DNA of 10,277 bases from contig JAWBON010000041.1 in NCBI GenBank assembly GCA_038826135.1, positions 1 to 10,277 on the forward strand, written 5' to 3'. Shown piece by piece: positions 119-10,020 of this stretch. The notes below the pieces were generated by a model. The model saw only the letters and a list, made by a program, of their open reading frames with translations. It did not search any database and had not been told where the DNA came from. A program made the translations under genes and the position numbers. Position 1 is the stretch's first letter. Each line of letters opens with the position of its first letter. The stretch comes from Candidatus Odinarchaeota archaeon. Its GTDB lineage: Archaea > Asgardarchaeota > Odinarchaeia > Odinarchaeales > Odinarchaeaceae.

Positions 119-874
119 GTGATTTTTTTGGAGCGCGAGGTTGAGATTAACGAGAACGCTAAGATACCTGAATCCCCTATAATTCTTCTAGGGTTACCGG
201 ATACTGGTCTTGTAGGTGTTATAGCTACTGCTCACATATTAGAGATTAATAAACCGAAGTATTTAGGTTCAATCGACTCTATATATTTCCCTCCAATGAT
301 CGTCATCCATAACGGGGAGATAATGGCTCCTGTTAGAATATACGGTCAAGGCAGCATAGTATCACTTATATCCGAGATCACTTTACCCGTGAACGGTATG
401 GATAAGATTGTAGATGCCATAGTATCCTGGTTGCAGGAGAAAAAACCACGCCTCGTCCTTTTCCTAGGTGGTATACCCGCCCCTAACAGGATGGAGCTTG
501 AAAGATCAACCTGCTACGCTGTGCCTACAAGCTCTGAACTTGTTAAACAAGTAGAAGAGTTGAATATACCCCGGCTGCTAGAGGGTTTAATGGTTGGACC
601 GTACGCTCTTCTGTTAAAAGAGTGTAAAAAGAAGGGGATTCCCTCTATAGCTCTTTTAAGCGAATCATATGCTAATTACCCTGATCCAGGTGCAGCTGCC
701 TCTGTGATAGAAACACTGAATAAAATAATTGATTTAAATGTTGAAATTGAAAGTTTACTGAAGAAAGCTGATGAGATTAGAATAAATATGAGAGATTTAA
801 TGAGACGGACCGCTAAAGAGATGAAGCAAGCTGAAAAATCCAGGGAATATGAGCTACCTCCACTATATATGTAG
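119..874 (+). CDS. PAC2-family proteasome assembly chaperone / PbaB-like proteasome activator
   Basis: Motifs IILLGLPDTGLVGVIAT, YLGSIDSIYFPP, LVLFLGG, MVGPYALLL, YPDPGAAA and a helical C-terminus ending LYM (HbYX). GGTGA at 118-122 could be the RBS for an in-frame TTG at 128-130, which may be the true start. Confidence 0.9.
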   Translation: MIFLEREVEINENAKIPESPIILLGLPDTGLVGVIATAHILEINKPKYLGSIDSIYFPPMIVIHNGEIMAPVRIYGQGSIVSLISEITLPVNGMDKIVDAIVSWLQEKKPRLVLFLGGIPAPNRMELERSTCYAVPTSSELVKQVEELNIPRLLEGLMVGPYALLLKECKKKGIPSIALLSESYANYPDPGAAASVIETLNKIIDLNVEIESLLKKADEIRINMRDLMRRTAKEMKQAEKSREYELPPLYM

Positions 875-876
875 GG

Positions 877-1335
877 GTGTTAGACGTGTCTAATGATGAA
901 TATTATGGTTTAGATGAATACATTGATAAGATTTTACAGAGACTGAGAAGACAGATGGATAGAGCTCTCCCGCTAGCTGATTTATCAATGGAATCCAGCT
1001 GGGATATTGAAGAAGGATGTATGGAGCCCCTCTTCCAGTTACAGGAGAAAGAGAATGAGATTGTTGTAAGCGCTGATCTCCCCTTAGTTAAGAAGGAAAG
1101 CATTAAAATAAAAGCTGATGAGCAGACAGTTGAAATATCGGCTGAGACTGTTAAAGAAATAGCGTTCGATAAATGGTGGGCTTCTCAGCGTAAAAAAGCA
1201 TTCTGTCGTTTCCATAAGAAAATAACTTTACCAACTAAAATAATACCTGAAGAGGCGAAAGCCTGTTTTAAAAACGGTATACTTATATTAACTCTTCCAA
1301 AGAAGAAGCGCGTTTTTGAAATAAAAGTTGAGTAA
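877..1335 (+). CDS. Small heat-shock protein (Hsp20/alpha-crystallin family)
   Basis: Alpha-crystallin core EIVVSADLPLVKKESIKI...FHKKITLPTKIIPEEAKACFKNGILILTLPK and C-terminal I-x-V (IKVE). It starts 2 nt after the PAC2 stop. AGGGGTG at 873-879 may be the RBS for an in-frame GTG at 886. Confidence 0.9.
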   Translation: MLDVSNDEYYGLDEYIDKILQRLRRQMDRALPLADLSMESSWDIEEGCMEPLFQLQEKENEIVVSADLPLVKKESIKIKADEQTVEISAETVKEIAFDKWWASQRKKAFCRFHKKITLPTKIIPEEAKACFKNGILILTLPKKKRVFEIKVE

Positions 1336-1410: not shown

Positions 1411-3270
1411 TTAAAGTTTATCTAAGCCTAATTCCTTGAGTTTTTCCTCTGATGGTATGCCCTTCGGCCAGCCTTTAACTTTGAAGTACTCTTCTCTCAT
1501 CTCTTTCAAAGGCGGTACTAAGCCAGCCGCTCCACCAGCTTTTCTAGCTGTGAAGAATCTCTTCGGTAGCCAGTAGTCTCTCTCCGGGACTAGACCGTGC
1601 TTTATATTGAACATGTTCATTAATGTGACTATTCTCTCACCGACTTTAAGCAGATCCTGTGGGGTCATATTCCACCCTGTGACAGCGTTAGTTAAATTCG
1701 TTATTCTTGTGAAATTATATCCTGAAAACTCGTAGAAGAAGCAGAATACTAGTGAGTTAGCTACAGCCATTCTATCCTGGTATTTCGCAGCTGCAAGACC
1801 CTTCAGTTTAGTGTCGTGTGGATCCATAGGCTTACTTAATTGAGGTCCAGCTTCAGGGAAGGTGACTCCCAACTCTATAGCTTCTGGGAAGCCGTGCAGG
1901 TGGCTCGCACCCTTCATAGAAGTCGCTGTCTCAACAGCCATAGACATGAATGCGCGTGGATCATGTGCTGGTACCACTGCGCCGTTGACGTGAAGCGCCA
2001 GATCAGGGCAGCCTAGTTTTTCACCAGCAGGTCTTACACCTTCACCTAGTAAGGTTGGTATTTTACCTTTTCTATGAGCTATGTCTTCTAAGAGTCTTAG
2101 CATGGCATCCCCGTCACCCCATTTAAGCTCGTAGCCTAGGTCGGCCTTCTTGATATAGCCTTTCTCATAAGCTTCCATCGCAAAAGCGCAGACTCCACCG
2201 AACTCTATGGTGTCGATACTGTACCTGTTACATAACTCGTTCGCTTTGTTTATCGCTAGAAGGTTATCTATCAAGCAGTCTGATCCAATCATTGCCAGTG
2301 TCTCATATTCAGGACCGTAGCTGTCCATAGCGTATTTTTCAGGTGTCTTCATGGTCACTCTTCTATGGCATCCCATTATACAATTTGAACACGCGTCTGG
2401 TTTAGGTTTAAGAACCTTGTTGAATTCACCGCCAGCTGAACCTATTTTCTTAGCGCCCTCAATCCAACGGGACTCTAAGAAGTTTTTAATCGGCAGCAGA
2501 CCGTTTTCCTCTCTAGGTATCACAGCCATAGCCTGGCCCTCTTCACGGTTAGCTTTAGTGAAATCCGCTTTCTTAGCGTCTTCAGTAGCTTCTTTTCTAA
2601 GCTGAGCAAGCTCATCCGGTCTCGCTATTGGGACCTTCTTAGTTCCTCTGAAGGCTAAAGCTTTCAGTTTCTTTGAACCCATGACAGCTCCCATGCCTGT
2701 TCTACCAGCACAGCCGTGCCCGTAGTTGCAGATTAGACCAGCGTATCTTACAAGGTTCTCTGCAGCAGGCCCTATGGGCGCTACTTGTATTTTATCATCT
2801 TTCAACTCTTTTTTTATAGCATCCTCAGTCTGGTAGGCGTCTAGTTTACCCCACATGTGAGAAGCGTCTTTAATCTCAGCTTTACCATCGCTTACAAACA
2901 CATAGACCGGCTTAGCCGACTTACCTTTAACAACTATTGCGTCAAACCCTGTTTTCTTAAATTCCTCAGAGTTATAGCCCCCTCCTAAAGACTCCCCGAA
3001 TATACCTGTTAAAGGAGACTTCGCGCATGCTGAAAAACGTCCACTTCCAAGTATAGCGGAACCACCCTGCCATGGACCTGTTGCGAAAACGAACACATTA
3101 TCCGGTCCGAGTGGATCAGCACCCGCAGGGATCTCCTTATACATTATATAGGCTGCTAACCCTGTTCCGCCCAGAAACTTCTTGTACACATCCTCAGGGA
3201 TATCTCTGGTTTTAATTTTATGGTTTGTAAGATCTACTTCAAGTATCTTTCCCCAATATCCACCAGCCAT
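1411..3270 (-). CDS. aor: Tungsten-containing aldehyde:ferredoxin oxidoreductase (AOR family)
   Basis: 619 aa with GYWGKILEVDL, FLGGTGLA, KSPLTG, AGRTGMGAVMGSKKLKA, a [4Fe-4S] cysteine set C294-x2-C297-x3-C301 plus C510, GPEYET, HDPR and GASH. RBS GGGAGGT lies 6 nt before the ATG. The exact AOR subfamily and substrate are not determinable. Confidence 0.92.
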   Translation of the reverse strand: MAGGYWGKILEVDLTNHKIKTRDIPEDVYKKFLGGTGLAAYIMYKEIPAGADPLGPDNVFVFATGPWQGGSAILGSGRFSACAKSPLTGIFGESLGGGYNSEEFKKTGFDAIVVKGKSAKPVYVFVSDGKAEIKDASHMWGKLDAYQTEDAIKKELKDDKIQVAPIGPAAENLVRYAGLICNYGHGCAGRTGMGAVMGSKKLKALAFRGTKKVPIARPDELAQLRKEATEDAKKADFTKANREEGQAMAVIPREENGLLPIKNFLESRWIEGAKKIGSAGGEFNKVLKPKPDACSNCIMGCHRRVTMKTPEKYAMDSYGPEYETLAMIGSDCLIDNLLAINKANELCNRYSIDTIEFGGVCAFAMEAYEKGYIKKADLGYELKWGDGDAMLRLLEDIAHRKGKIPTLLGEGVRPAGEKLGCPDLALHVNGAVVPAHDPRAFMSMAVETATSMKGASHLHGFPEAIELGVTFPEAGPQLSKPMDPHDTKLKGLAAAKYQDRMAVANSLVFCFFYEFSGYNFTRITNLTNAVTGWNMTPQDLLKVGERIVTLMNMFNIKHGLVPERDYWLPKRFFTARKAGGAAGLVPPLKEMREEYFKVKGWPKGIPSEEKLKELGLDKL

Positions 3271-3476: not shown

Positions 3477-4838
3477 GTGAGATTTATGGTGAAAATGACA
3501 ACAGAGCAAGCTATCGAAAAATCTAAGAAATGGTGCCTTCACGGCTGGGGTTTCATACCCATAGCTGTAGAATCTGCTAAAGGAGCTATATTCAAAGACT
3601 TGAATGGAAAGGAATACTTAGATTTCCTATCTCAGACCGCGGGCGTCCTAGGTATAGGTCACACACATCCGAAAATGGTTGCAGCTGTTAAAGAACAGCT
3701 TGAAAAAATACAGCACGTTCTGACAGGGTTCGTTATTCCAAGTCGTGCTGAATTCGGTGAGAAACTCGCCGCTGTAGCTCCACCCCCGCTGACAAACAAT
3801 TGCATGATGTATATTGCATGCGGTGGGTCAGAGGCTAACGAGACTGCGTTAAAAATGGCGATGTTAATAACCGGTAAGAAAGAGGTTATATCACAATATC
3901 ACGCATACCACGGTGGAACACTTGCTTTAATGGGCTTGTTAGCGCAAGCACCGCATAGAAAAGGCTTCCTAAGATACCCTGGTTTCCACAACATACCTGC
4001 TACCCCCTACTGTTACAGATGTTATCAAGGTAAAAAATACCCTGACTGCGATCATGAGTGTGCAAGACAGTTAGAATACCACTTAAAGTGGGGTGTTGAA
4101 GAAGACTCTGTAGCCGCGTTCATACAGGAACCGATAACTGGTAACGGCGGTCACATGGGTCCGAACGACAACAATCATAAGAAGGAACCTGATAAAGTAT
4201 ATCACAAAATAATCAGAGAAACATGTAACAAATACAATGTGCTATATATAAGCGATGAAGTCCAGTGTGGTATGGGTAGAATGGGTAAGAACTGGGGCTG
4301 CATGGTTTACGACATGAAACCGGACATATTCACAACAGCTAAAGCCCTAGGTGGAGGCCTGCCTGTTTCAGCAGCGGTAATCCGCAAAGACCTTGTACCT
4401 GAGAAAATGAAGGAAGCCCAGTGGCATATATTCACTATGGGTGGCAGTCCGATAACAATGGCTGCCGGCATAGCAGCGCTAGACGTTTTAGTTGAAGAGA
4501 GACTGGCTGAAAAAGCTAAGACTCAGGGCGAGAGAATGTACAAGGTTCTGAAAGAATGGGAGAACACTCACAAAATAGTCGGCGAAGTCCGCGGTGAGGG
4601 CTTATTCATCGGAATAGAGCTTGTAAAAGACAAGAAATCTAAGGAGAAAGCTATAGACGCGGCTGGCGCGGTCTTCTCAAAATGCTTAGAGAAAGGTCTA
4701 CTGCTAGGTGTCTCCGCAGTAGGCGGATGGGGTAACGTATTGAAACTAAAGCCTCCTCTAGCAATACCCAACGATCAGGCTGACAAAGGTCTGGCTATAA
4801 TAGAGGAAGCGATCAAAGAAGTCGCGAAGAACATGTAA
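3477..4838 (+). CDS. Class-III PLP-dependent enzyme (aminotransferase-III fold); possibly a phospho-lyase rather than a transaminase
   Basis: Motifs GKEYLDF, GSEANETALKMA, YHAYHGGT, FIQEPITG, ISDEVQCGMGRMG and PDIFTTAKALGGG (PLP lysine K289). The C-terminal NVLKLKPP replaces the usual NVIRxxPP. The likely start is ATG 3486, with RBS AGGTGA at 3475-3480. Confidence 0.9.
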   Translation: MRFMVKMTTEQAIEKSKKWCLHGWGFIPIAVESAKGAIFKDLNGKEYLDFLSQTAGVLGIGHTHPKMVAAVKEQLEKIQHVLTGFVIPSRAEFGEKLAAVAPPPLTNNCMMYIACGGSEANETALKMAMLITGKKEVISQYHAYHGGTLALMGLLAQAPHRKGFLRYPGFHNIPATPYCYRCYQGKKYPDCDHECARQLEYHLKWGVEEDSVAAFIQEPITGNGGHMGPNDNNHKKEPDKVYHKIIRETCNKYNVLYISDEVQCGMGRMGKNWGCMVYDMKPDIFTTAKALGGGLPVSAAVIRKDLVPEKMKEAQWHIFTMGGSPITMAAGIAALDVLVEERLAEKAKTQGERMYKVLKEWENTHKIVGEVRGEGLFIGIELVKDKKSKEKAIDAAGAVFSKCLEKGLLLGVSAVGGWGNVLKLKPPLAIPNDQADKGLAIIEEAIKEVAKNM

Positions 4839-4843
4839 ACAAT

Positions 4844-4859
4844 CCCCTCTATTTTTTTT
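4844..4859 (+). terminator. Oligo-T terminator of the class-III PLP enzyme gene
   Basis: CCCCTCTA-T8, 5 nt after the stop codon. Confidence 0.6.
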
Positions 4860-4974
4860 AAATTTTAATCTATTTTTCAATTTATTTAGAAAAGTAAATA
4901 TTAAAACAAGTTTTCCACTTATCGAGGAGATGTTAACCTAGAGTTTTCTGTAAACTTTTAATAATAAAAATTAT

Positions 4975-4993: not shown

Positions 4994-6118
4994 TTAATGT
5001 TCGCAACCGCACTTCTCATGGTATTCTGTACCGATAGCATCAGTTGCTAAAATAGCATCTTTAACCAGCTGAGGTGTTATATTCAGCGGCATATTGCCCA
5101 TCGTGTCATGTGGATCGCATGCTTTCTCAGCTGCTTTCATAAGATCGTTTTCACTGACAGCCCCTATACCGAGCTCTTTTAATGTTATCGGTAGACCCAG
5201 CTCATGCACCCAGCTGACGATACTCTCCACCTCTTCAGGAGCTCTGCCTTCAAGTATCAGTTGAGTTATAGTACAGTAAGCTACAAGTTGACCATGCTCC
5301 ACGTGGAGGCCTGGCACGATTGTTAAACCGTTATGTGTAGCATGAGCTGCAGCTAGACCTGAGCTTTCGAATCCGAGGCAGCTTAGTAATTTAACAGATT
5401 CAATTATTTTCTCTACAGCTGGTGTAAGCAACTGTTTTTTAGCATCCTTCGCTGCCTGTACACCGTAAGTCATGAGGTTTTCGAAGCATAAATGTGTTAA
5501 AGCCACAGCGGCTGCGGTTGATCTTCCTCCTGGTATATTTTTAGCATTCGGTTGAGCTGCGCACGCGTCAGCTTCGAACATACAAGCTAAAGCGTCCCCC
5601 ATACCCCATGTTATAAATTGAGGAGGCGCTTTCGCTAATATCTCTGAATCCACTAAAACTAGGTCAGGGTTCTTTGGATGGAATAAGTATTCGACAAACT
5701 GGTGTTTCTCCGTATATACTACTGATAAACCGCTCGCATCAGCGTTAGTCGCGCACTGTGTTGGCACTGTTACAACACTAGCTTTCATCTTAACAGCTAC
5801 CGCTTTAGCTGTATCCGCTGATTTACCGCCGCCGATTCCAATAACTATGTCGGCTTTGGACTCTTTTCCGATAGATACGAGTTTATTTATCGTGTCATGG
5901 GTGCACTCTTTAACAGTTGGGTCTTTGTGAACAACTTCCACACCGTTCTTTTTTAGACTTTCAGTGATTATATCCCCTGTCACTTTCATAGCTGTAGGGC
6001 CGCCGAATATCACGGCTCTCTTACCTAGTAGTTTAACCTGTTCCCCTATCTTATATATTGCTCCACGGCCTTGAACATATCTGCTTGGAGATACGAGTAT
6101 TTTCGGCACTTCGACCAT
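4994..6118 (-). CDS. gldA: Glycerol dehydrogenase-family (GldA-like) metal-dependent alcohol dehydrogenase
   Basis: Motifs SPSRYVQGRGA, GIGGGKSADTAKA, VPT, GMGDAL (D175), ESSGLAAAHATHNGLT (H259) and HG (H275); the metal ligands are spaced as in GldA. RBS GAGGTG lies 7 nt before the ATG. The substrate-site motif deviates, so the symbol denotes family rather than proven function. Confidence 0.8.
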   Translation of the reverse strand: MVEVPKILVSPSRYVQGRGAIYKIGEQVKLLGKRAVIFGGPTAMKVTGDIITESLKKNGVEVVHKDPTVKECTHDTINKLVSIGKESKADIVIGIGGGKSADTAKAVAVKMKASVVTVPTQCATNADASGLSVVYTEKHQFVEYLFHPKNPDLVLVDSEILAKAPPQFITWGMGDALACMFEADACAAQPNAKNIPGGRSTAAAVALTHLCFENLMTYGVQAAKDAKKQLLTPAVEKIIESVKLLSCLGFESSGLAAAHATHNGLTIVPGLHVEHGQLVAYCTITQLILEGRAPEEVESIVSWVHELGLPITLKELGIGAVSENDLMKAAEKACDPHDTMGNMPLNITPQLVKDAILATDAIGTEYHEKCGCEH

Positions 6119-6359: not shown

Positions 6360-8027
6360 ATGGCAACTGAGAAGGAAGTCTTCATTAGGAAGGCCTCAGG
6401 TCTAACTAGGGTTATAAGCGCGTGGGATGCGTTAATATACGCATTCTGCAACCCTGGCATACTATACTGTATGCTATATATAACCTGGGGTCCTTGGGGT
6501 GTCGGTCCAGGTGCTGATATGCCATGGGCGGTAGTAACAGTCTTCATGCTCTTGCCTATTCAAGCACTCTACTGGTTGTTCTCGGTTAGCATGCCCAGAA
6601 GTGGTGGCGAATACTTATATGTCAGTAGGATAATCAGTCCCGCATTCGGTTTATTCGCTTCATGGACCTTAACAATCGTTGGCATGTCTTGGACAGGCCA
6701 ATGCACAACCTGGATGATAAACTACGGTATAGGTGGCATGTTCCTGAACGGGGGTATTCTCGCACGGGATGTAGGCCTTCTAAACATTGGTAACATATTA
6801 GGTGATACAAGTCTTATCCAATATGGTGGTACCCCATATACCGCTGCAATAATCTCAGTAATAGCAACAATATCTCTCATATCGACATTCTATATAATGT
6901 ACCGTGGTGCTAAAGCCTCTATGAGACTAAGCTGGATCTGCTCAGCTATAGCTACAGTGGGTCTTCTATGCTTCGTAGCTATCGCATGGACTTCAGGTGA
7001 AACAGTGTTCGTAAACAATGTGAACACGATCTGGAGTGACCCGACGATTCAATCAAGCGGATACTTCGCATACACTAACTATGCTGCGTATATAACAGAT
7101 GTTATAGCCGCAGGGTACCCAGGTCACCCTGAACTTATAGGTACAATATTCGCTGGAACAGCTTATGTGAACCTTAACACTTTAGGATCCACATATACTA
7201 CAAGCGCTGCTGGAGAGATTAAAGGAGTCTCATTCGCTCAAGGATTAGCTCTACTCGGTTCAATAATAATGTTCATGGGTTACTGGGAGCTCTTCTACGC
7301 TTCAGCCTACGTTGGCTGCGGCTCAGACTTCTGGTGGGGTATAGCTTATGCCGAAAATGGTGGAATAGACTATGCTGCTTTCGGTACAATGGCTAACGGT
7401 ATTACGGTAGCCCCCTACCTGTCAGATAATCCATTCCTAGTATGGATGGTTGCATTCGGCTTCGTTGCAGCCACCTATGGTAGTGTACTGGGAATGTCCT
7501 TCGGACCCGTCAGAAACATGTTCGCATGGTCATTTGACGGTGTTTTACCGAACTGGTGGAACAAAGTTGACAGAAGAGGCTCACCATGGGTATCCGTCAT
7601 GGCTGGTTGTATAATCGCATGGGCGTTCATGATGCTCTACACATGGACTTCACTGCTTTACTTGATTCTATGGACGATAACAGTATGGTTCATCGGCTGG
7701 ATAATCGTAGGCATAGCCGGTATGATATTCCCGTACAGGAGAAAGGACATCTTCGAGAAATCACCCGAACTAGTTAAGAAGAGAGTCGCCGGACTTCCTG
7801 TAGTAACCATACTAGGCGCGTTAACCACAGGCATCAGCGTGTTCACCGTATGGGTTACACTGGCCCCCTCATTCGTATACGGTTGGGGTCTTGATCCTCT
7901 CTCACTGGGTGGTACAGTCCTATTCTTAGTAGTATGCCCGTTCGTGTTATACTACGCTGCCTACTTCTACAGGAAGAGTAAAGGCGTTCCCATGGACCTG
8001 AGGTTTAAGGAGATACCTCCTGACTAA
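6360..8027 (+). CDS. APC-superfamily amino acid/amine permease
   Basis: About 12 hydrophobic segments by eye; N-terminal FIRKASGLTRVISAWDA, SMPRSGGEYLYVSR, AGEIK, RNMFAWSFDGVLP and C-terminal FKEIPPD, typical of archaeal APC permeases. RBS AGGAG at 6346-6350. Confidence 0.9.
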   Translation: MATEKEVFIRKASGLTRVISAWDALIYAFCNPGILYCMLYITWGPWGVGPGADMPWAVVTVFMLLPIQALYWLFSVSMPRSGGEYLYVSRIISPAFGLFASWTLTIVGMSWTGQCTTWMINYGIGGMFLNGGILARDVGLLNIGNILGDTSLIQYGGTPYTAAIISVIATISLISTFYIMYRGAKASMRLSWICSAIATVGLLCFVAIAWTSGETVFVNNVNTIWSDPTIQSSGYFAYTNYAAYITDVIAAGYPGHPELIGTIFAGTAYVNLNTLGSTYTTSAAGEIKGVSFAQGLALLGSIIMFMGYWELFYASAYVGCGSDFWWGIAYAENGGIDYAAFGTMANGITVAPYLSDNPFLVWMVAFGFVAATYGSVLGMSFGPVRNMFAWSFDGVLPNWWNKVDRRGSPWVSVMAGCIIAWAFMMLYTWTSLLYLILWTITVWFIGWIIVGIAGMIFPYRRKDIFEKSPELVKKRVAGLPVVTILGALTTGISVFTVWVTLAPSFVYGWGLDPLSLGGTVLFLVVCPFVLYYAAYFYRKSKGVPMDLRFKEIPPD

Positions 8028-8171: not shown

Positions 8172-9164
8172 ATGATGCAAAAAGTGAAGGTTGGTGTGAA
8201 ATTAATGGTAAAAACAAGATTGTTTTTCGCAACAGATGTGCACGGTTCGGAAGTATGTTTTAGAAAATTCCTTAACGCGGGTAAATTCTACGGTGTTAAA
8301 ACATTGATATTAGGCGGTGATATAACTGGGAAGATGATCGTCCCCGTTGTTAAAAAAGAGGGTGGCGTATATGAGGCTAAATACTACGGTACAGTTCATA
8401 AGGCTAAGTCTGAGGATGAGTTAAATAAGCTTAAAAGACTCATTCGCGACGGTGGCTTCTACCCGTTTATAACGACAGAGGACGAGATGAAGGAGCTTGC
8501 TAGTAAAAACGTTAACGTCGACGAAATCTTCAAAGACCTAGTTCTAGACACACTTAGAGGATGGGTTAAATTAGCTGAGGAGAGGTTGAAGCCTGAAGGT
8601 ATAAAACTATACATGACAGGCGGCAACGATGACATAGCTGAAATATCAGATATTTTAAGAAGCTCCGATTATATCATAGATCCTGAGGGAACTGTTGTTA
8701 ACATTGACGGTGAACATGAGATGGTAAGCACCGGGTATTCGAATATAACACCTTGGAAATGTCCGAGAGATATAGGTGACGATGAACTTTGGAAAATAAT
8801 TGAGAAAATGCTTAAAGAAGTTAAAGATATGAAGAAAGCGATATTCAACTTTCACGTTCCACCCTACGATGTCCCACCACTCGACTCAGCCCCAGAACTT
8901 GATGAAACCCTTAAACCAATAATGGAAGGAGGCTCAGGGTTAAAGATGATACCTGTGGGTAGTAAAGCTGTTAGAAGAGCTATCGACGAATATCAGCCGC
9001 TTCTAGGTTTACACGGCCATATACATGAAGGCAAAGGCGCTATAACAGTTGGGCGGACACTATGCGTTAACCCTGGCAGTGAGTATGGTGAAGGTATATT
9101 AAGAGGTGTGCTAGTAACAATTGATAAAGATCAGGTAAAAGAATACTTGTTCACGTCTGGTTAA
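8172..9164 (+). CDS. Calcineurin-like metallophosphoesterase (Icc-related)
   Basis: All five motifs are present: TDVHG, GGDITG, GGNDD, FHVPP and GHIHE, followed by NPGSEY. The likely start is ATG 8205 (RBS GGTG at 8193-8196), since the TATA box at 8150-8157 would place transcription start downstream of ATG 8172. Confidence 0.9.
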   Translation: MMQKVKVGVKLMVKTRLFFATDVHGSEVCFRKFLNAGKFYGVKTLILGGDITGKMIVPVVKKEGGVYEAKYYGTVHKAKSEDELNKLKRLIRDGGFYPFITTEDEMKELASKNVNVDEIFKDLVLDTLRGWVKLAEERLKPEGIKLYMTGGNDDIAEISDILRSSDYIIDPEGTVVNIDGEHEMVSTGYSNITPWKCPRDIGDDELWKIIEKMLKEVKDMKKAIFNFHVPPYDVPPLDSAPELDETLKPIMEGGSGLKMIPVGSKAVRRAIDEYQPLLGLHGHIHEGKGAITVGRTLCVNPGSEYGEGILRGVLVTIDKDQVKEYLFTSG

Positions 9165-9189
9165 ATCTTAAAAATAAAATTAACGGAGT

Positions 9190-10020
9190 GTGACCTATAT
9201 GTCATCTGACGAAGCGATTTTAGGTGAGGCTTTGAGATTAATCGATGCAGCTGAGAAAGAGGGAATAATACTGAGAATAATCGGAGCTGCAGCGGTTAGA
9301 CTGAAATGCGTTGACTTCAGAGAGCTTCACAAATCATTCAGGCAGTTAACTGACGTAGATTATATGTCTTATTGGAAATATGAGAGAAAGGTTGACGAAT
9401 TCCTTGAAAAACAGGGATATGCACCTTTACGTTCAGCTGTAACACCGGGTCTATTCGTAGGTAGACGCGTTTACAATGATAAAACCGGTCAGAACAGAGC
9501 GCATATAGACGTATTCTTCGACGAATTAGATATGTGCCATAAAGTCGACTTTCGTGGAAGGCTTGAAATAGATAAGCCTACAATATCAGTAACAGACCTG
9601 GTTTTAGAGAAAATGCAGATTGTTGAAATAAATGAGAAAGACATAAAAGATCTTTGCATAATATTCGCTCAGTTCCCGCTCTCCGAAAAGGATGAGCCGA
9701 ACAGTATAAACAAGAAGTATATCGCAAAAATACTAGCTAAGGAATGGGGTTTCTGGTATACTTTAACAACTAATCTGGATAAAGTTAGAAAATTCATAGA
9801 AAAATACACTCAGCAGGGAATTTTCAACGAACAGCATAAGGCGACAGTTCTGCAGAGAACCCAGGAATTGCGTGAAGCAATAGATAAGGAAGGTAAGAGC
9901 TTCGGTTGGAAGATGAGAGCTAAAGTTGGAACAAAGAAGATCTGGTATAATCCAGTCGGCGAGGTTGAGAGGGCGCCTCACTTAGAGGAATATAAGCCGA
10001 AAGAATATCGGCAAGATTAA
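9190..10020 (+). CDS. Uncharacterised protein with Pol-beta-superfamily nucleotidyltransferase-like motifs
   Basis: hhGxxAV (IIGAAAV, G32), D-x-D (TDVD, D55/D57), third acidic strand (HIDVF, D107) and K141...KDxxD (K150-D151-x-x-D154). The likely start is ATG 9199, with RBS GGAGTG at 9185-9190. The reading frame is solid; the fold call is by motif recognition only. Confidence 0.65.
   Translation: MTYMSSDEAILGEALRLIDAAEKEGIILRIIGAAAVRLKCVDFRELHKSFRQLTDVDYMSYWKYERKVDEFLEKQGYAPLRSAVTPGLFVGRRVYNDKTGQNRAHIDVFFDELDMCHKVDFRGRLEIDKPTISVTDLVLEKMQIVEINEKDIKDLCIIFAQFPLSEKDEPNSINKKYIAKILAKEWGFWYTLTTNLDKVRKFIEKYTQQGIFNEQHKATVLQRTQELREAIDKEGKSFGWKMRAKVGTKKIWYNPVGEVERAPHLEEYKPKEYRQD

What the first reader, a model, noticed from the sequence alone, without database searches (positions are those of the whole stretch)
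4731..4760. Class-III 'aminotransferase' carries the K-x-K-P-P phospho-lyase signature
Seen: G419-NVLKLKPPL with K423 and K425. Established (from memory): typical class-III transaminases (GabT, ArgD, OAT) have an Arg here that binds the alpha-carboxylate. Human ETNPPL (NVLKIKPP), PHYKPL (NILKFKPP) and the Arthrobacter aurescens phospho-lyase A1RDF1 instead use two lysines at this position to bind substrate phosphate. Inference: an automatic GABA/ornithine aminotransferase label would be wrong, and the substrate bears a phosphate or similar oxyanion. Caveat: I cannot see equivalents of the other phosphate-site residues I recall (the Tyr in the YLD..NN region and the Arg of NTRY); here these regions read YLDFLSQT and QHVLTGF. 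It may therefore be a distinct subfamily.
Basis: partly seen in the sequence, partly recalled or inferred. Interest (0 to 1): 0.75.

Follow-up and report, generated by a model that had tools for sequence, protein, structure and literature searches.

The report
Lysine-for-arginine PLP enzyme, amine catabolism cluster
This Asgard-archaeal "aminotransferase" has swapped the usual carboxylate-binding arginine for two lysines, as the known phosphate-eliminating lyases have, and it sits in a conserved six-gene amine-to-aldehyde cluster; it is therefore not a GABA/ornithine transaminase, but whether it is a lyase or an unusual transaminase is still open.

Summary
ORF 3477-4838 (+) is an intact class-III PLP enzyme with G419-NVLKLKPPL at 4731-4760. 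K423 occupies the column where related solved structures and 33 of 41 outgroup representatives have the carboxylate-binding Arg. The other two residues of the 2-oxoglutarate-transaminase triad are also missing (G147, N223), so a GABA/ornithine label is unsupported.

K-x-K is conserved in 74 of 78 close relatives and in 118 of 120 ETNPPL-type proteins.

The protein is not an ETNPPL-family member. That family's other motifs are absent, its HMM scores are far too low, and no kinase is fused or adjacent. Trees cannot decide between common origin and convergence (AU p 0.62 and 0.47).

The gene belongs to a conserved cluster: APC permease, metallophosphoesterase, nucleotidyltransferase-like protein, this enzyme, GldA-type dehydrogenase and tungsten AOR. 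The cluster occurs in Odin- and Promethearchaeota and as one bacterial operon.

Best reading (about 0.4): an aldehyde-forming enzyme for a phosphate-bearing amine, lyase-like. Main rival (about 0.33): an amine:pyruvate transaminase, supported by an adjacent alanine dehydrogenase in one lineage. First-stage notes from this scan record the same cluster in other genomes.

The parts
3477..4838 (+). Class-III (fold-type I) PLP enzyme, 453 aa counted from the GTG; the likely start is the ATG at 3486.
   Evidence: Pfam PF00202 scores 284 bits. It is below the cut-off of every NCBIfam model. The AlphaFold model has pLDDT 87.9 and matches class-III structures at TM about 0.85-0.9.
4731..4760 (+). The G419-NVLKLKPPL motif. 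K423 (4743-4745) replaces the gateway Arg, and K425 (4749-4751) is a second cationic residue.
   Evidence: Residues 421-424 form a beta-strand in the model, so side chains i and i+2 should face the same side (inference).
4341..4343 (+). K289, the Schiff-base lysine in TTAKALGGG.
   Evidence: Invariant in 78 of 78 relatives and in all groups compared.
4143..4154 (+). N223-G-G-H226. N223 replaces the GabT E211 'Glu switch'. H226 is polar here (Q in the ETNPPL type) but hydrophobic in other clades.
   Evidence: N in 70 of 78 and H in 74 of 78 core sequences; group comparison.
3915..3917 (+). G147, at the position of GabT R141 (binder of the distal carboxylate).
   Evidence: G in 63 of 78 core sequences. 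R in 19 of 41 outgroup representatives; N or H in the ETNPPL type.
1411..3270 (-). Aldehyde:ferredoxin oxidoreductase (AOR), transcribed divergently from the PLP enzyme.
   Evidence: Pfam AFOR_N and AFOR_C. Orthologues of 70-73% identity lie in the same cluster in L012 and L007.
4994..6118 (-). GldA-type (glycerol / diol / aminopropanol) iron-family dehydrogenase.
   Evidence: NCBIfam PRK09423 scores 406.6 bits against a cut-off of 336. The partners in L001 and L007 pass the same model.
6360..8027 (+). APC-superfamily permease, the presumed importer of the amine substrate.
   Evidence: Pfam AA_permease_2. A permease of this superfamily lies next to the enzyme in the window and in L012, L001, L007, L010, L013, L094 and L097.
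8172..9164 (+). Metallophosphoesterase-like protein (X).
   Evidence: Pfam Metallophos matches are weak (E 0.004). Atlas feature neighbours are metallophosphoesterases. It co-occurs with the enzyme in L012, L001, L007 and L013.
9190..10020 (+). Nucleotidyltransferase-like protein (Y).
   Evidence: Atlas feature neighbours are 'nucleotidyltransferase family protein' clusters. It co-occurs with the enzyme in L012, L001 and L007.

Best explanation
The gene encodes an intact PLP enzyme of a previously uncharacterised clade of the class-III fold. In this clade the Glu/Arg 'gateway' and the distal Arg of 2-oxoglutarate transaminases have been replaced by N223, K423 and G147, and a second cationic residue (K425) and a polar H226 have been added.

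I read K423, K425 and H226 as a site for a tetrahedral oxyanion, most likely a phosphate ester, on an amine that the neighbouring APC permease brings in or that is activated inside the cell.

The proposed chemistry is as follows. K289 forms and then deprotonates the external aldimine. If the anion sits beta to the amino carbon, 1,2-elimination is expected, as in O-phosphoethanolamine phospho-lyase. The products would be an aldehyde, ammonium and phosphate. The aldehyde is then oxidised by the adjacent tungsten AOR (acid plus reduced ferredoxin), while the GldA-type dehydrogenase handles the alcohol or ketone side. One possibility for the latter is aminoacetone to aminopropanol, parallel to the mycobacterial RMM pathway.

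Shown: the residue pattern, its conservation, the conserved gene cluster, and that the product-handling enzymes are aldehyde and alcohol enzymes. Inferred: the nature of the anion, the elimination chemistry and the identity of the substrate.
For: - K-x-K is conserved in 74 of 78 core relatives. The wider clade of 31 representatives all carry [KH]-x-[KR] (SH-aLRT 95).
- The same K-x-K occurs in 118 of 120 ETNPPL-type proteins and in human ETNPPL 6tor, a solved class-III structure deposited as a phospho-lyase.
- Position 226 is polar (H or Q) in both groups and hydrophobic elsewhere.
- A second class-III lyase for a phosphorus-bearing amine, PbfA, has likewise lost both Arg and the Glu, and carries a conserved Lys where pyruvate transaminases have their Arg (supplement of PMC8154272).
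- There is no Arg in the loop before the motif either (GLLLGVSAVGGWGNVLKLK).
- A metallophosphoesterase-like gene travels with the enzyme in four lineages.
- Phosphate-handling partners recur in the sister clades: an FGGY kinase in one operon (L048), an amino-acid-kinase-family gene 2 kb upstream (L065), and a HAD phosphatase fusion (P0258).
- The genome in which the window lies (93% complete) has no alanine dehydrogenase.
- A tree that holds all K-x-K groups together is not rejected (p-AU 0.62 with the motif columns, 0.47 without).
Against: - No kinase of a recognised family lies in or next to any core-clade cluster. In contrast, ETNPPL-type proteins have an APH kinase fused or nearby.
- The ETNPPL-family motifs are absent. 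The PRK06148 HMM scores 236 bits, against 698 for a true member.
- Free ML searches place the ETNPPL type elsewhere.
- GldA-type enzymes prefer vicinal hydroxy-carbonyl compounds, not acetaldehyde (background knowledge).
- GlcD-like 2-hydroxy-acid oxidases lie near the gene in three lineages. Both this and the GldA preference fit a hydroxy-aldehyde product of transamination better.
- A true alanine dehydrogenase (TIGR00518, 505 bits against a cut-off of 392) is the divergent neighbour in the P0007 lineage.
- APC permeases are not known carriers of phosphate esters (background knowledge).
- One core member (L013) reads E-x-R-A-P.
Confidence: 0.4

Rival explanations
1. It is an omega-amine (amino-alcohol):pyruvate transaminase. 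K423 takes over the carboxylate-binding role of the missing Arg. The amine (for example ethanolamine or 1-amino-2-propanol) is converted to a hydroxy-aldehyde (glycolaldehyde or lactaldehyde) plus alanine. The aldehyde is then reduced by the GldA-type enzyme or oxidised by AOR, and onward by a GlcD-like oxidase. Alanine dehydrogenase regenerates pyruvate.
For: Most class-III enzymes are transaminases (background knowledge). A true alanine dehydrogenase is the divergent neighbour in loci L001-L006. The GldA subfamily model is passed in the window, L001 and L007, and the next-best model is glycolaldehyde reductase. GlcD-like oxidases are present in L001, L094 and L097, and an aldehyde dehydrogenase in L094. 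The APC permease fits a free amine. No kinase is present.
Against: No Arg is available for the keto-acid carboxylate, either at the GabT R398 column or in the preceding loop. Alanine dehydrogenase is adjacent in only one lineage and was not found in the window's own genome. This reading explains neither the invariant second cation K425 nor the co-inherited phosphoesterase.
Confidence: 0.33
2. It is a PbfA-like ammonia-lyase, or a transaminase acting on a phosphonate or sulfonate amine (2-aminoethylphosphonate, its 1-hydroxy derivative, or taurine). K423 and K425 would bind the phosphonate or sulfonate, and the aldehyde (phosphono- or sulfo-acetaldehyde) would be reduced or oxidised by the neighbouring enzymes.
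For: The PbfA model is among the better NCBIfam matches (274 bits). PbfA shows the same loss of the Arg/Glu/Arg triad with a Lys replacement. Iron-family alcohol dehydrogenases are known in phosphonate and taurine routes, and the neighbouring dehydrogenase gives weak SarD and PsrA matches.
Against: 274 bits is far below the PbfA cut-off of 525. No phn, Xsc or C-P-cleaving gene was seen in any of the clusters. The neighbouring dehydrogenase is GldA-type, not SarD-type.
Confidence: 0.12
3. It is an amino-acid racemase/epimerase, or a dialkylglycine-decarboxylase-like decarboxylating transaminase acting on an imported alpha-amino acid.
For: The best solved-structure matches by sequence are archaeal broad-specificity racemases (233 bits), isoleucine 2-epimerase and dialkylglycine decarboxylase. 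The fold search gives the same set. The enzyme has a Gln in the SQTAG loop (Q53), and I recall that dialkylglycine decarboxylase has a Gln at about this point. The permease is of the amino-acid type.
Against: All of these relatives keep the Arg that K423 replaces. The aldehyde-handling neighbours (AOR, GldA) do not fit a racemase. Identity is only about 30-34%.
Confidence: 0.08

Closest known systems
Human O-phosphoethanolamine phospho-lyase ETNPPL/AGXT2L1 (PDB 6TOR) and the bacterial APH(-M23)-fused PRK06148/PRK06149 family
   Same: Both have the class-III fold and K-x-K-P-P at the gateway-Arg position (NVLKIKPPM against NVLKLKPPL). Both have lost GabT R141 and E211, and both have a polar residue after the GGG turn.
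   Different: Identity is only about 30%, and 6tor scores 186 bits against 233 for a racemase. The family motifs NNV.HVGH and NTNSRF are absent. No APH kinase is fused or adjacent. A one-residue insertion (T54, SQTAG) and the W316-H317 pair are specific to the window's clade. A sister relationship is neither shown nor rejected.
A1RDF1 phospholyase of Arthrobacter aurescens TC1 (PDB 5G4I/5G4J)
   Same: It is deposited as a phospholyase, and I recall activity on O-phosphoethanolamine without transaminase activity. It has Lys at the gateway-Arg column and a cation two residues later.
   Different: It reads K-M-R-P-P, not K-x-K, and it belongs to the ETNPPL-type family. The paper with its phosphate-site residues was not available.
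PbfA, (R)-1-hydroxy-2-aminoethylphosphonate ammonia-lyase (PMC8154272)
   Same: It is a class-III lyase for a phosphorus-bearing amine. It lacks both Arg and the Glu, and uses a conserved Lys in place of a carboxylate-binding Arg.
   Different: Its Lys lies at the pyruvate-transaminase Arg position, not the GabT R398 column. The HMM score is 274 against a cut-off of 525. PbfA sits in phnW/phnX clusters, which are absent here.
RMM (aminoacetone / 1-amino-2-propanol) microcompartment locus of Mycobacterium and Rhodococcus
   Same: The gene logic is similar: an amino-acid permease, an amino-alcohol dehydrogenase, a class-III 'aminotransferase' and an aldehyde-oxidising enzyme (PMC4207490). A dedicated 1-amino-2-propanol kinase has been characterised there; only the titles of those papers were seen.
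   Different: Here the dehydrogenase is GldA-type rather than SDR, and the aldehyde enzyme is a tungsten AOR rather than a CoA-acylating dehydrogenase. There are no shell proteins. In place of an APH kinase there is only a nucleotidyltransferase-like protein plus a metallophosphoesterase. The phospho-lyase step in RMM is taken from my memory, not verified here.
GabT / ArgD / OAT-type 2-oxoglutarate-dependent omega-transaminases (the usual automatic label)
   Same: They share the fold and the PLP-binding residues (K289, D260, Q263, E218, T320, GGS 116-118).
   Different: R141, E211 and R398 are all replaced, and the scores are far below the family cut-offs.

Membership tests
Class-III aminotransferase fold (Pfam PF00202) | HMM match above the gathering score over the full length. 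| tested here: met
   284.4 bits against a cut-off of 30.5, covering residues 27-446.
Class-III aminotransferase fold (Pfam PF00202) | PLP-site residues: the Schiff-base Lys, the Asp that contacts the pyridine N, and the phosphate-binding GGS and Thr. | tested here: met
   K289, D260 and E218 are invariant; Q263 75/78 and T320 71/78 nearly so in 78 relatives.
2-oxoglutarate-dependent omega-transaminases (GabT/ArgD/OAT) | Gateway Arg (GabT R398) in x-x-R-x-x-P-P. | tested here: not met
   K423 occupies this column.
2-oxoglutarate-dependent omega-transaminases (GabT/ArgD/OAT) | Glu switch (GabT E211) and distal-carboxylate Arg (R141). | tested here: not met
   N223 and G147 occupy these positions. 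The roles of the residues are described in the supplement of PMC8154272.
2-oxoglutarate-dependent omega-transaminases (GabT/ArgD/OAT) | NCBIfam equivalog score above the cut-off. | tested here: not met
   GABAtrnsam scores 239 against 507, argD 240 against 410, and Orn_aminotrans 214 against 378.
ETNPPL / PHYKPL / A1RDF1 phospho-lyase family (PRK06148/PRK06149 aminotransferase domain) | K-x-[KR]-P-P in place of the gateway Arg. | tested here: met
   KLKPP here; K-x-K in 118 of 120 family members; KIKPP in 6tor; KMRPP in 5g4i.
ETNPPL / PHYKPL / A1RDF1 phospho-lyase family (PRK06148/PRK06149 aminotransferase domain) | The N-terminal D..NNV.HVGH motif and the N-T-N-S-R-F motif. | tested here: not met
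   These are present in 107 and 115 of 120 family members, and absent here and in 10 relatives tested.
ETNPPL / PHYKPL / A1RDF1 phospho-lyase family (PRK06148/PRK06149 aminotransferase domain) | A family HMM score comparable to that of true members. | tested here: not met
   PRK06148 scores 236 bits here against 698 for the stand-alone member P0350.
ETNPPL / PHYKPL / A1RDF1 phospho-lyase family (PRK06148/PRK06149 aminotransferase domain) | Forms one clade with the family. | tested here: inconclusive
   Free ML searches separate the two groups. The constrained tree is 7.5 lnL better with the motif columns (p-AU 0.62) and 3.2 lnL worse without them (p-AU 0.47).
ETNPPL / PHYKPL / A1RDF1 phospho-lyase family (PRK06148/PRK06149 aminotransferase domain) | A partner APH-type kinase, fused or adjacent. 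| tested here: not met
   None was found in nine core-clade contexts. No fused form of the core clade appeared among longer proteins. The family itself has APH fused (P0264) or nearby (L096).
ETNPPL / PHYKPL / A1RDF1 phospho-lyase family (PRK06148/PRK06149 aminotransferase domain) | Phosphate-eliminating lyase activity without transaminase activity. | not testable with these tools
   This needs an enzyme assay.
PbfA (NF049939) | HMM score above the cut-off, and a phnW/phnX gene context. | tested here: not met
   274 bits against a cut-off of 525. No phn genes were seen in the clusters examined.
Amine:pyruvate omega-transaminases | A 'flipping' Arg in the loop that precedes x-x-x-P-P. | tested here: not met
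   Residues 405-425 (GLLLGVSAVGGWGNVLKLK) contain no Arg. The position of the flipping Arg comes from background knowledge and the supplement of PMC8154272.
Amine:pyruvate omega-transaminases | An alanine dehydrogenase partner. | tested here: inconclusive
   It is adjacent in L001-L006 (TIGR00518, 505 bits). It is absent from the window, from the other clusters and from the window's own genome at 93% completeness.

The most novel reading that the evidence does not exclude
The six genes encode a kinase-independent and B12-independent route for fermenting amino alcohols (ethanolamine or aminopropanol) in Asgard archaea, Bathyarchaeia and some anaerobic bacteria. In this reading, the nucleotidyltransferase-like protein activates the hydroxyl group as a nucleotidyl or phospho ester, with the metallophosphoesterase trimming or proofreading it. 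The K-x-K PLP enzyme then eliminates that ester to give aldehyde plus ammonia, and AOR and GldA dismutate the aldehyde. This would be a second, independently evolved lineage of PLP phospho-lyases with a new way of activating the substrate.
Probability: 0.1. Interest if true: 0.8.

Novelty: new variant of a known kind. Interest (0 to 1): 0.55.

Why it matters
Class-III "aminotransferases" are mass-annotated as GABA or ornithine transaminases. This clade cannot be one of those, and it occurs in Asgard archaea, Bathyarchaeia and anaerobic bacteria.

The clade is fixed inside a conserved permease/AOR/GldA cluster, so working out its reaction would assign a whole catabolic pathway for an environmental amine. 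That pathway could be phospholipid head-group or amino-alcohol fermentation that yields reduced ferredoxin, in organisms whose energy metabolism is debated.

It would also show whether the Arg-to-Lys-x-Lys switch is a general predictor of phosphate-eliminating chemistry in this fold. So far that chemistry is known only from the ETNPPL family, with a related Arg-to-Lys change in PbfA.

Tried and rejected
- Papers on the phosphate-binding residues of A1RDF1 and ETNPPL (Cuetos 2016; the 6TOR paper) and the Mallette & Kimber kinase paper are not held.
- Searching solved structures with the C-terminal 69 residues alone did not bring the phospho-lyases to the top; racemases and dialkylglycine decarboxylase still lead.
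- The fold search of the AlphaFold model does not discriminate. All class-III structures match at TM 0.80-0.88 by query length, and 6tor ranks 29th.
- The 'careful' IQ-TREE run did not finish in about 1200 s. Quick PMSF trees and AU tests were used instead.
- The scan of genome contigs returned only two true core-clade loci among its 80 (L012, L013); the rest were other class-III clades.
- Context look-ups for the sister representatives P0127 and P0123 gave contigs too short to use.
- No riboswitch or other Rfam family was found in seven cluster loci.
- The HAD domain fused to the sister protein P0258 is a generic phosphoglycolate-phosphatase-like domain, not PhnX. The idea of a fused phosphonatase was dropped.
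- No fused form of the core clade was found among proteins of 794 aa or more; the top long hits are ETNPPL-type APH-M23 fusions at about 34% identity.
Full report
**1. The observation**

The window holds one long ORF at 3477-4838 (+). Bases 4731-4760 translate to G-N-V-L-K-L-K-P-P-L, so the motif and its coordinates are as reported. Numbering from the GTG at 3477 gives K423 (4743-4745) and K425 (4749-4751). The 96%-identical homologue P0002 is 450 aa long, so the real start is probably the ATG at 3486.

The protein is a full-length class-III PLP enzyme (Pfam PF00202, 284 bits). It reaches the cut-off of none of the 69 NCBIfam models it touches. The best is PRK08360 at 333 bits against a cut-off of 608. 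GABA, acetylornithine and ornithine transaminase models score about half of their cut-offs.

**2. What K423 replaces**

In HMMER alignments to the closest solved structures, K423 pairs with the Arg of GNVLRIAPPL (racemase 9wrf), GNVIRITPPL (9wqz), SAIRLIPPL (7vno) and GGVFRIAPPL (dialkylglycine decarboxylase).

I aligned 80 representatives. The K423 column is Arg in 33 of 41 outgroup sequences and Lys in the window's clade. The K425 column is Q, A, S or T in outgroups, and K (or R) in the window's clade and its sisters.

Two further positions of the classical 2-oxoglutarate-transaminase triad are also changed. GabT R141 corresponds to G147, and the E211 'Glu switch' corresponds to N223. The roles of these three residues are described in the supplement of the PbfA paper (PMC8154272).

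Among the 78 full-length close relatives, the counts are: K-x-K 74, H-x-K 3, K-x-Q 1; G147 63; N223 70; H226 74. The PLP-site residues K289, D260 and E218 are invariant. The enzyme therefore looks catalytically intact, but it cannot bind 2-oxoglutarate or glutamate in the usual way.

**3.

No tool hands out reference sequences directly. I therefore took an APH-fused relative found in the exhaustive search (P0264, 952 aa) and searched the PDB with its aminotransferase domain. It matches 6TOR (human ETNPPL, 394 bits) and 5G4I (A1RDF1, 325 bits).

The printed alignments show NVLKIKPPM for ETNPPL and NVLKMRPPL for A1RDF1. A1RDF1 has K-x-R, not two lysines.

In 120 ETNPPL-type proteins, K-x-K is present in 118, the N-terminal D..NNV.HVGH motif in 107, and the N-T-N-S-R-F motif in 115. 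Neither of the last two motifs occurs in the window's protein or in its relatives.

**4. Family structure**

The big-database search shows a sharp step. Relatives run from 96% down to about 45% identity, then drop to 37%. They are named as Odinarchaeia, Promethearchaeota, Thorarchaeota, Bathyarchaeia, 'bacterium' and one Mycobacterium. At 50% clustering the clade collapses to two representatives.

A FastTree of 262 sequences and a PMSF ML tree of 80 both recover a clade of core plus sister lineages. All of its members carry [KH]-x-[KR] (support 96 and 95). None of the sister lineages reaches an NCBIfam cut-off either.

The ETNPPL-type group forms its own clade on a long stem (1.17 substitutions per site). 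In free searches it lands among Arg-bearing sequences, with or without the signature columns. However, a tree that forces all K-x-K groups together is 7.5 log-likelihood units better with the motif columns (p-AU 0.62) and only 3.2 units worse without them (p-AU 0.47).

Common origin and convergence are therefore both open. The group was defined after I had seen the data, and a long branch is involved, so I draw no conclusion beyond 'unresolved'.

The AlphaFold model (pLDDT 87.9) puts residues 421-424 in a beta-strand. Its fold matches do not discriminate between functional classes.

**5. Gene context**

In the window, the enzyme is flanked by a divergent AOR, a convergent GldA-type dehydrogenase, then an APC permease, a metallophosphoesterase-like protein (X) and a nucleotidyltransferase-like protein (Y).

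The contexts found in other lineages are:

| Locus / lineage | Enzyme identity | Genes around the enzyme |
|---|---|---|
| L012, Promethearchaeota MAG | 61% | The same six genes in the same layout; partners 56-70% identical |
| L007, bacterial contig | 54% | One tight co-directional run, gaps of 10-94 bp: permease-X-Y-enzyme-GldA-AOR |
| L001-L006, P0007 lineage | 62% | X, permease, Y and GldA; plus a divergent true alanine dehydrogenase (505 bits against 392), a C45/phospholipase-B-like Ntn hydrolase and a GlcD-like oxidase |
| L013, Bathyarchaeia | 47% | AOR, X and a permease; the motif reads E-I-R-A-P |
| L094 and L097 | 55-57% | A second arrangement: enzyme, a different APC permease, a 680-aa BPL_N-like protein and a 124-aa protein; also a GlcD-like oxidase with a CCG protein in L094, a divergent FAD_binding_4 protein in L097, and an aldehyde dehydrogenase in L094 |
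| L098 | 59% | Again a C45/phospholipase-B-like gene |
| L010/L011, Mycobacterium (H-x-K variant) | 46% | The enzyme lies between an APC permease and PdxS |

The common theme is an imported amine converted to an aldehyde, which is then oxidised or reduced. No recognised kinase lies in any of these contexts.

By contrast, ETNPPL-type proteins are fused to an APH kinase or have one nearby.

Outside the core clade, phosphate-handling partners do recur with K-x-[KR] enzymes:
- an operon of the enzyme, a class-I/II aminotransferase, an FGGY kinase and a RuBisCO-like protein in a Baldrarchaeota MAG (L048);
- an amino-acid-kinase-family gene 2 kb upstream in L065;
- a HAD phosphatase fusion (P0258).

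The window's own genome is 1.26 Mb and 93% complete. It has only one other class-III enzyme, no alanine dehydrogenase, and a GlcD-like gene on another contig.

**6. Weighing the mechanisms**

*For a phosphate or other oxyanion site with elimination chemistry:*
- The K-x-K pair and the polar residue 226 are shared with ETNPPL, a solved class-III structure deposited as a phospho-lyase.
- PbfA, the other class-III lyase for a phosphorus-bearing amine, has made a parallel Arg-to-Lys change.
- No Arg is available for a keto acid.
- A phosphoesterase is co-inherited with the enzyme.
- Phosphate-handling partners recur in the sister lineages.

On chemical grounds, any PLP enzyme that deprotonates the amino carbon of a beta-phosphoryloxy amine should eliminate phosphate. 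The question therefore reduces to the identity of the substrate (inference).

*For transamination:*
- A true alanine dehydrogenase lies next to the gene in one lineage.
- The GldA-type partner and the GlcD-like partners suit hydroxy-aldehydes and 2-hydroxy acids better than acetaldehyde.
- APC permeases carry free amines.
- There is no kinase.

I put the lyase-like, oxyanion-substrate reading at about 0.4 and the amine:pyruvate transaminase at about 0.33. A phosphonate or sulfonate variant gets about 0.12, and a racemase or decarboxylating transaminase about 0.08.

A one-to-one analogy with the mycobacterial RMM locus is attractive: permease, amino-alcohol dehydrogenase, kinase, class-III enzyme and aldehyde dehydrogenase (PMC4207490). 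It requires, however, that the nucleotidyltransferase-like protein, with or without the phosphoesterase, stands in for the kinase. That is pure speculation.

**7. Verdict**

- The protein is not a member of the ETNPPL family. It belongs to a distinct, uncharacterised K-x-K clade that may work like that family.
- First-stage notes from this scan record the same cluster in three other genomes. I used them only as leads. I re-tested here the HGGT/GNGG point made in one of them.

Noticed in passing
window 8172-10020: The metallophosphoesterase-like and nucleotidyltransferase-like genes follow the APC permease as a unit. They stay with it in an archaeal MAG (L012), in the P0007 lineage (L001) and in a bacterial operon (L007). 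Their chemistry is unknown, and another report of this scan covers them.
   Followed up: partly
L048:2466-7891: A Baldrarchaeota MAG has an overlapping-ORF operon: a K-I-K-P-P class-III enzyme (34% identical), a class-I/II aminotransferase, an FGGY sugar kinase and a RuBisCO large-subunit-like protein. This suggests a phospho-sugar or amino-sugar pathway that uses a K-x-K enzyme.
   Followed up: partly
P0258 (757 aa; no locus fetched): A sister-clade enzyme with K-V-R-P-P is fused to an N-terminal HAD phosphatase domain. The domain is phosphoglycolate-phosphatase-like, not PhnX.
   Followed up: partly
L094:8001-17359 and L097:9001-14728: A second conserved arrangement of the core clade: the enzyme, a different APC permease, a protein of about 680 aa with a weak BPL_N match, a 124-aa protein and, in L094, a GlcD-like FAD oxidase with a CCG iron-sulfur protein.
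   Followed up: no
L013:10001-11326: A Bathyarchaeia member of the core clade (47% identical, with AOR, a metallophosphoesterase and a permease nearby) reads G-N-V-L-E-I-R-A-P-L. The first Lys is Glu and the second is Arg, so the second cationic position is the more constant one.
   Followed up: no
L001:12648-14006 and L098:1651-3033: A C45 / phospholipase-B-like Ntn hydrolase (54% identical between the two loci) lies beside the enzyme in two related lineages. It could be an amidase that releases the amine substrate.
   Followed up: no
window 119-1335: A PAC2 proteasome-assembly-chaperone-family gene is followed directly by an archaeal Hsp20. These look like housekeeping neighbours unrelated to the cluster.
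   Followed up: no
window 4839-4865: A run of T residues immediately after the stop codon of the enzyme gene (…ccctctattttttttta) looks like an archaeal terminator, placed between the convergent enzyme and GldA genes.
   Followed up: no
G000:C55:4534-5646: The only other class-III enzyme in this 1.26-Mb genome (424 bits to PF00202). I presume it is the ArgD/LysJ-type biosynthetic transaminase.
   Followed up: no
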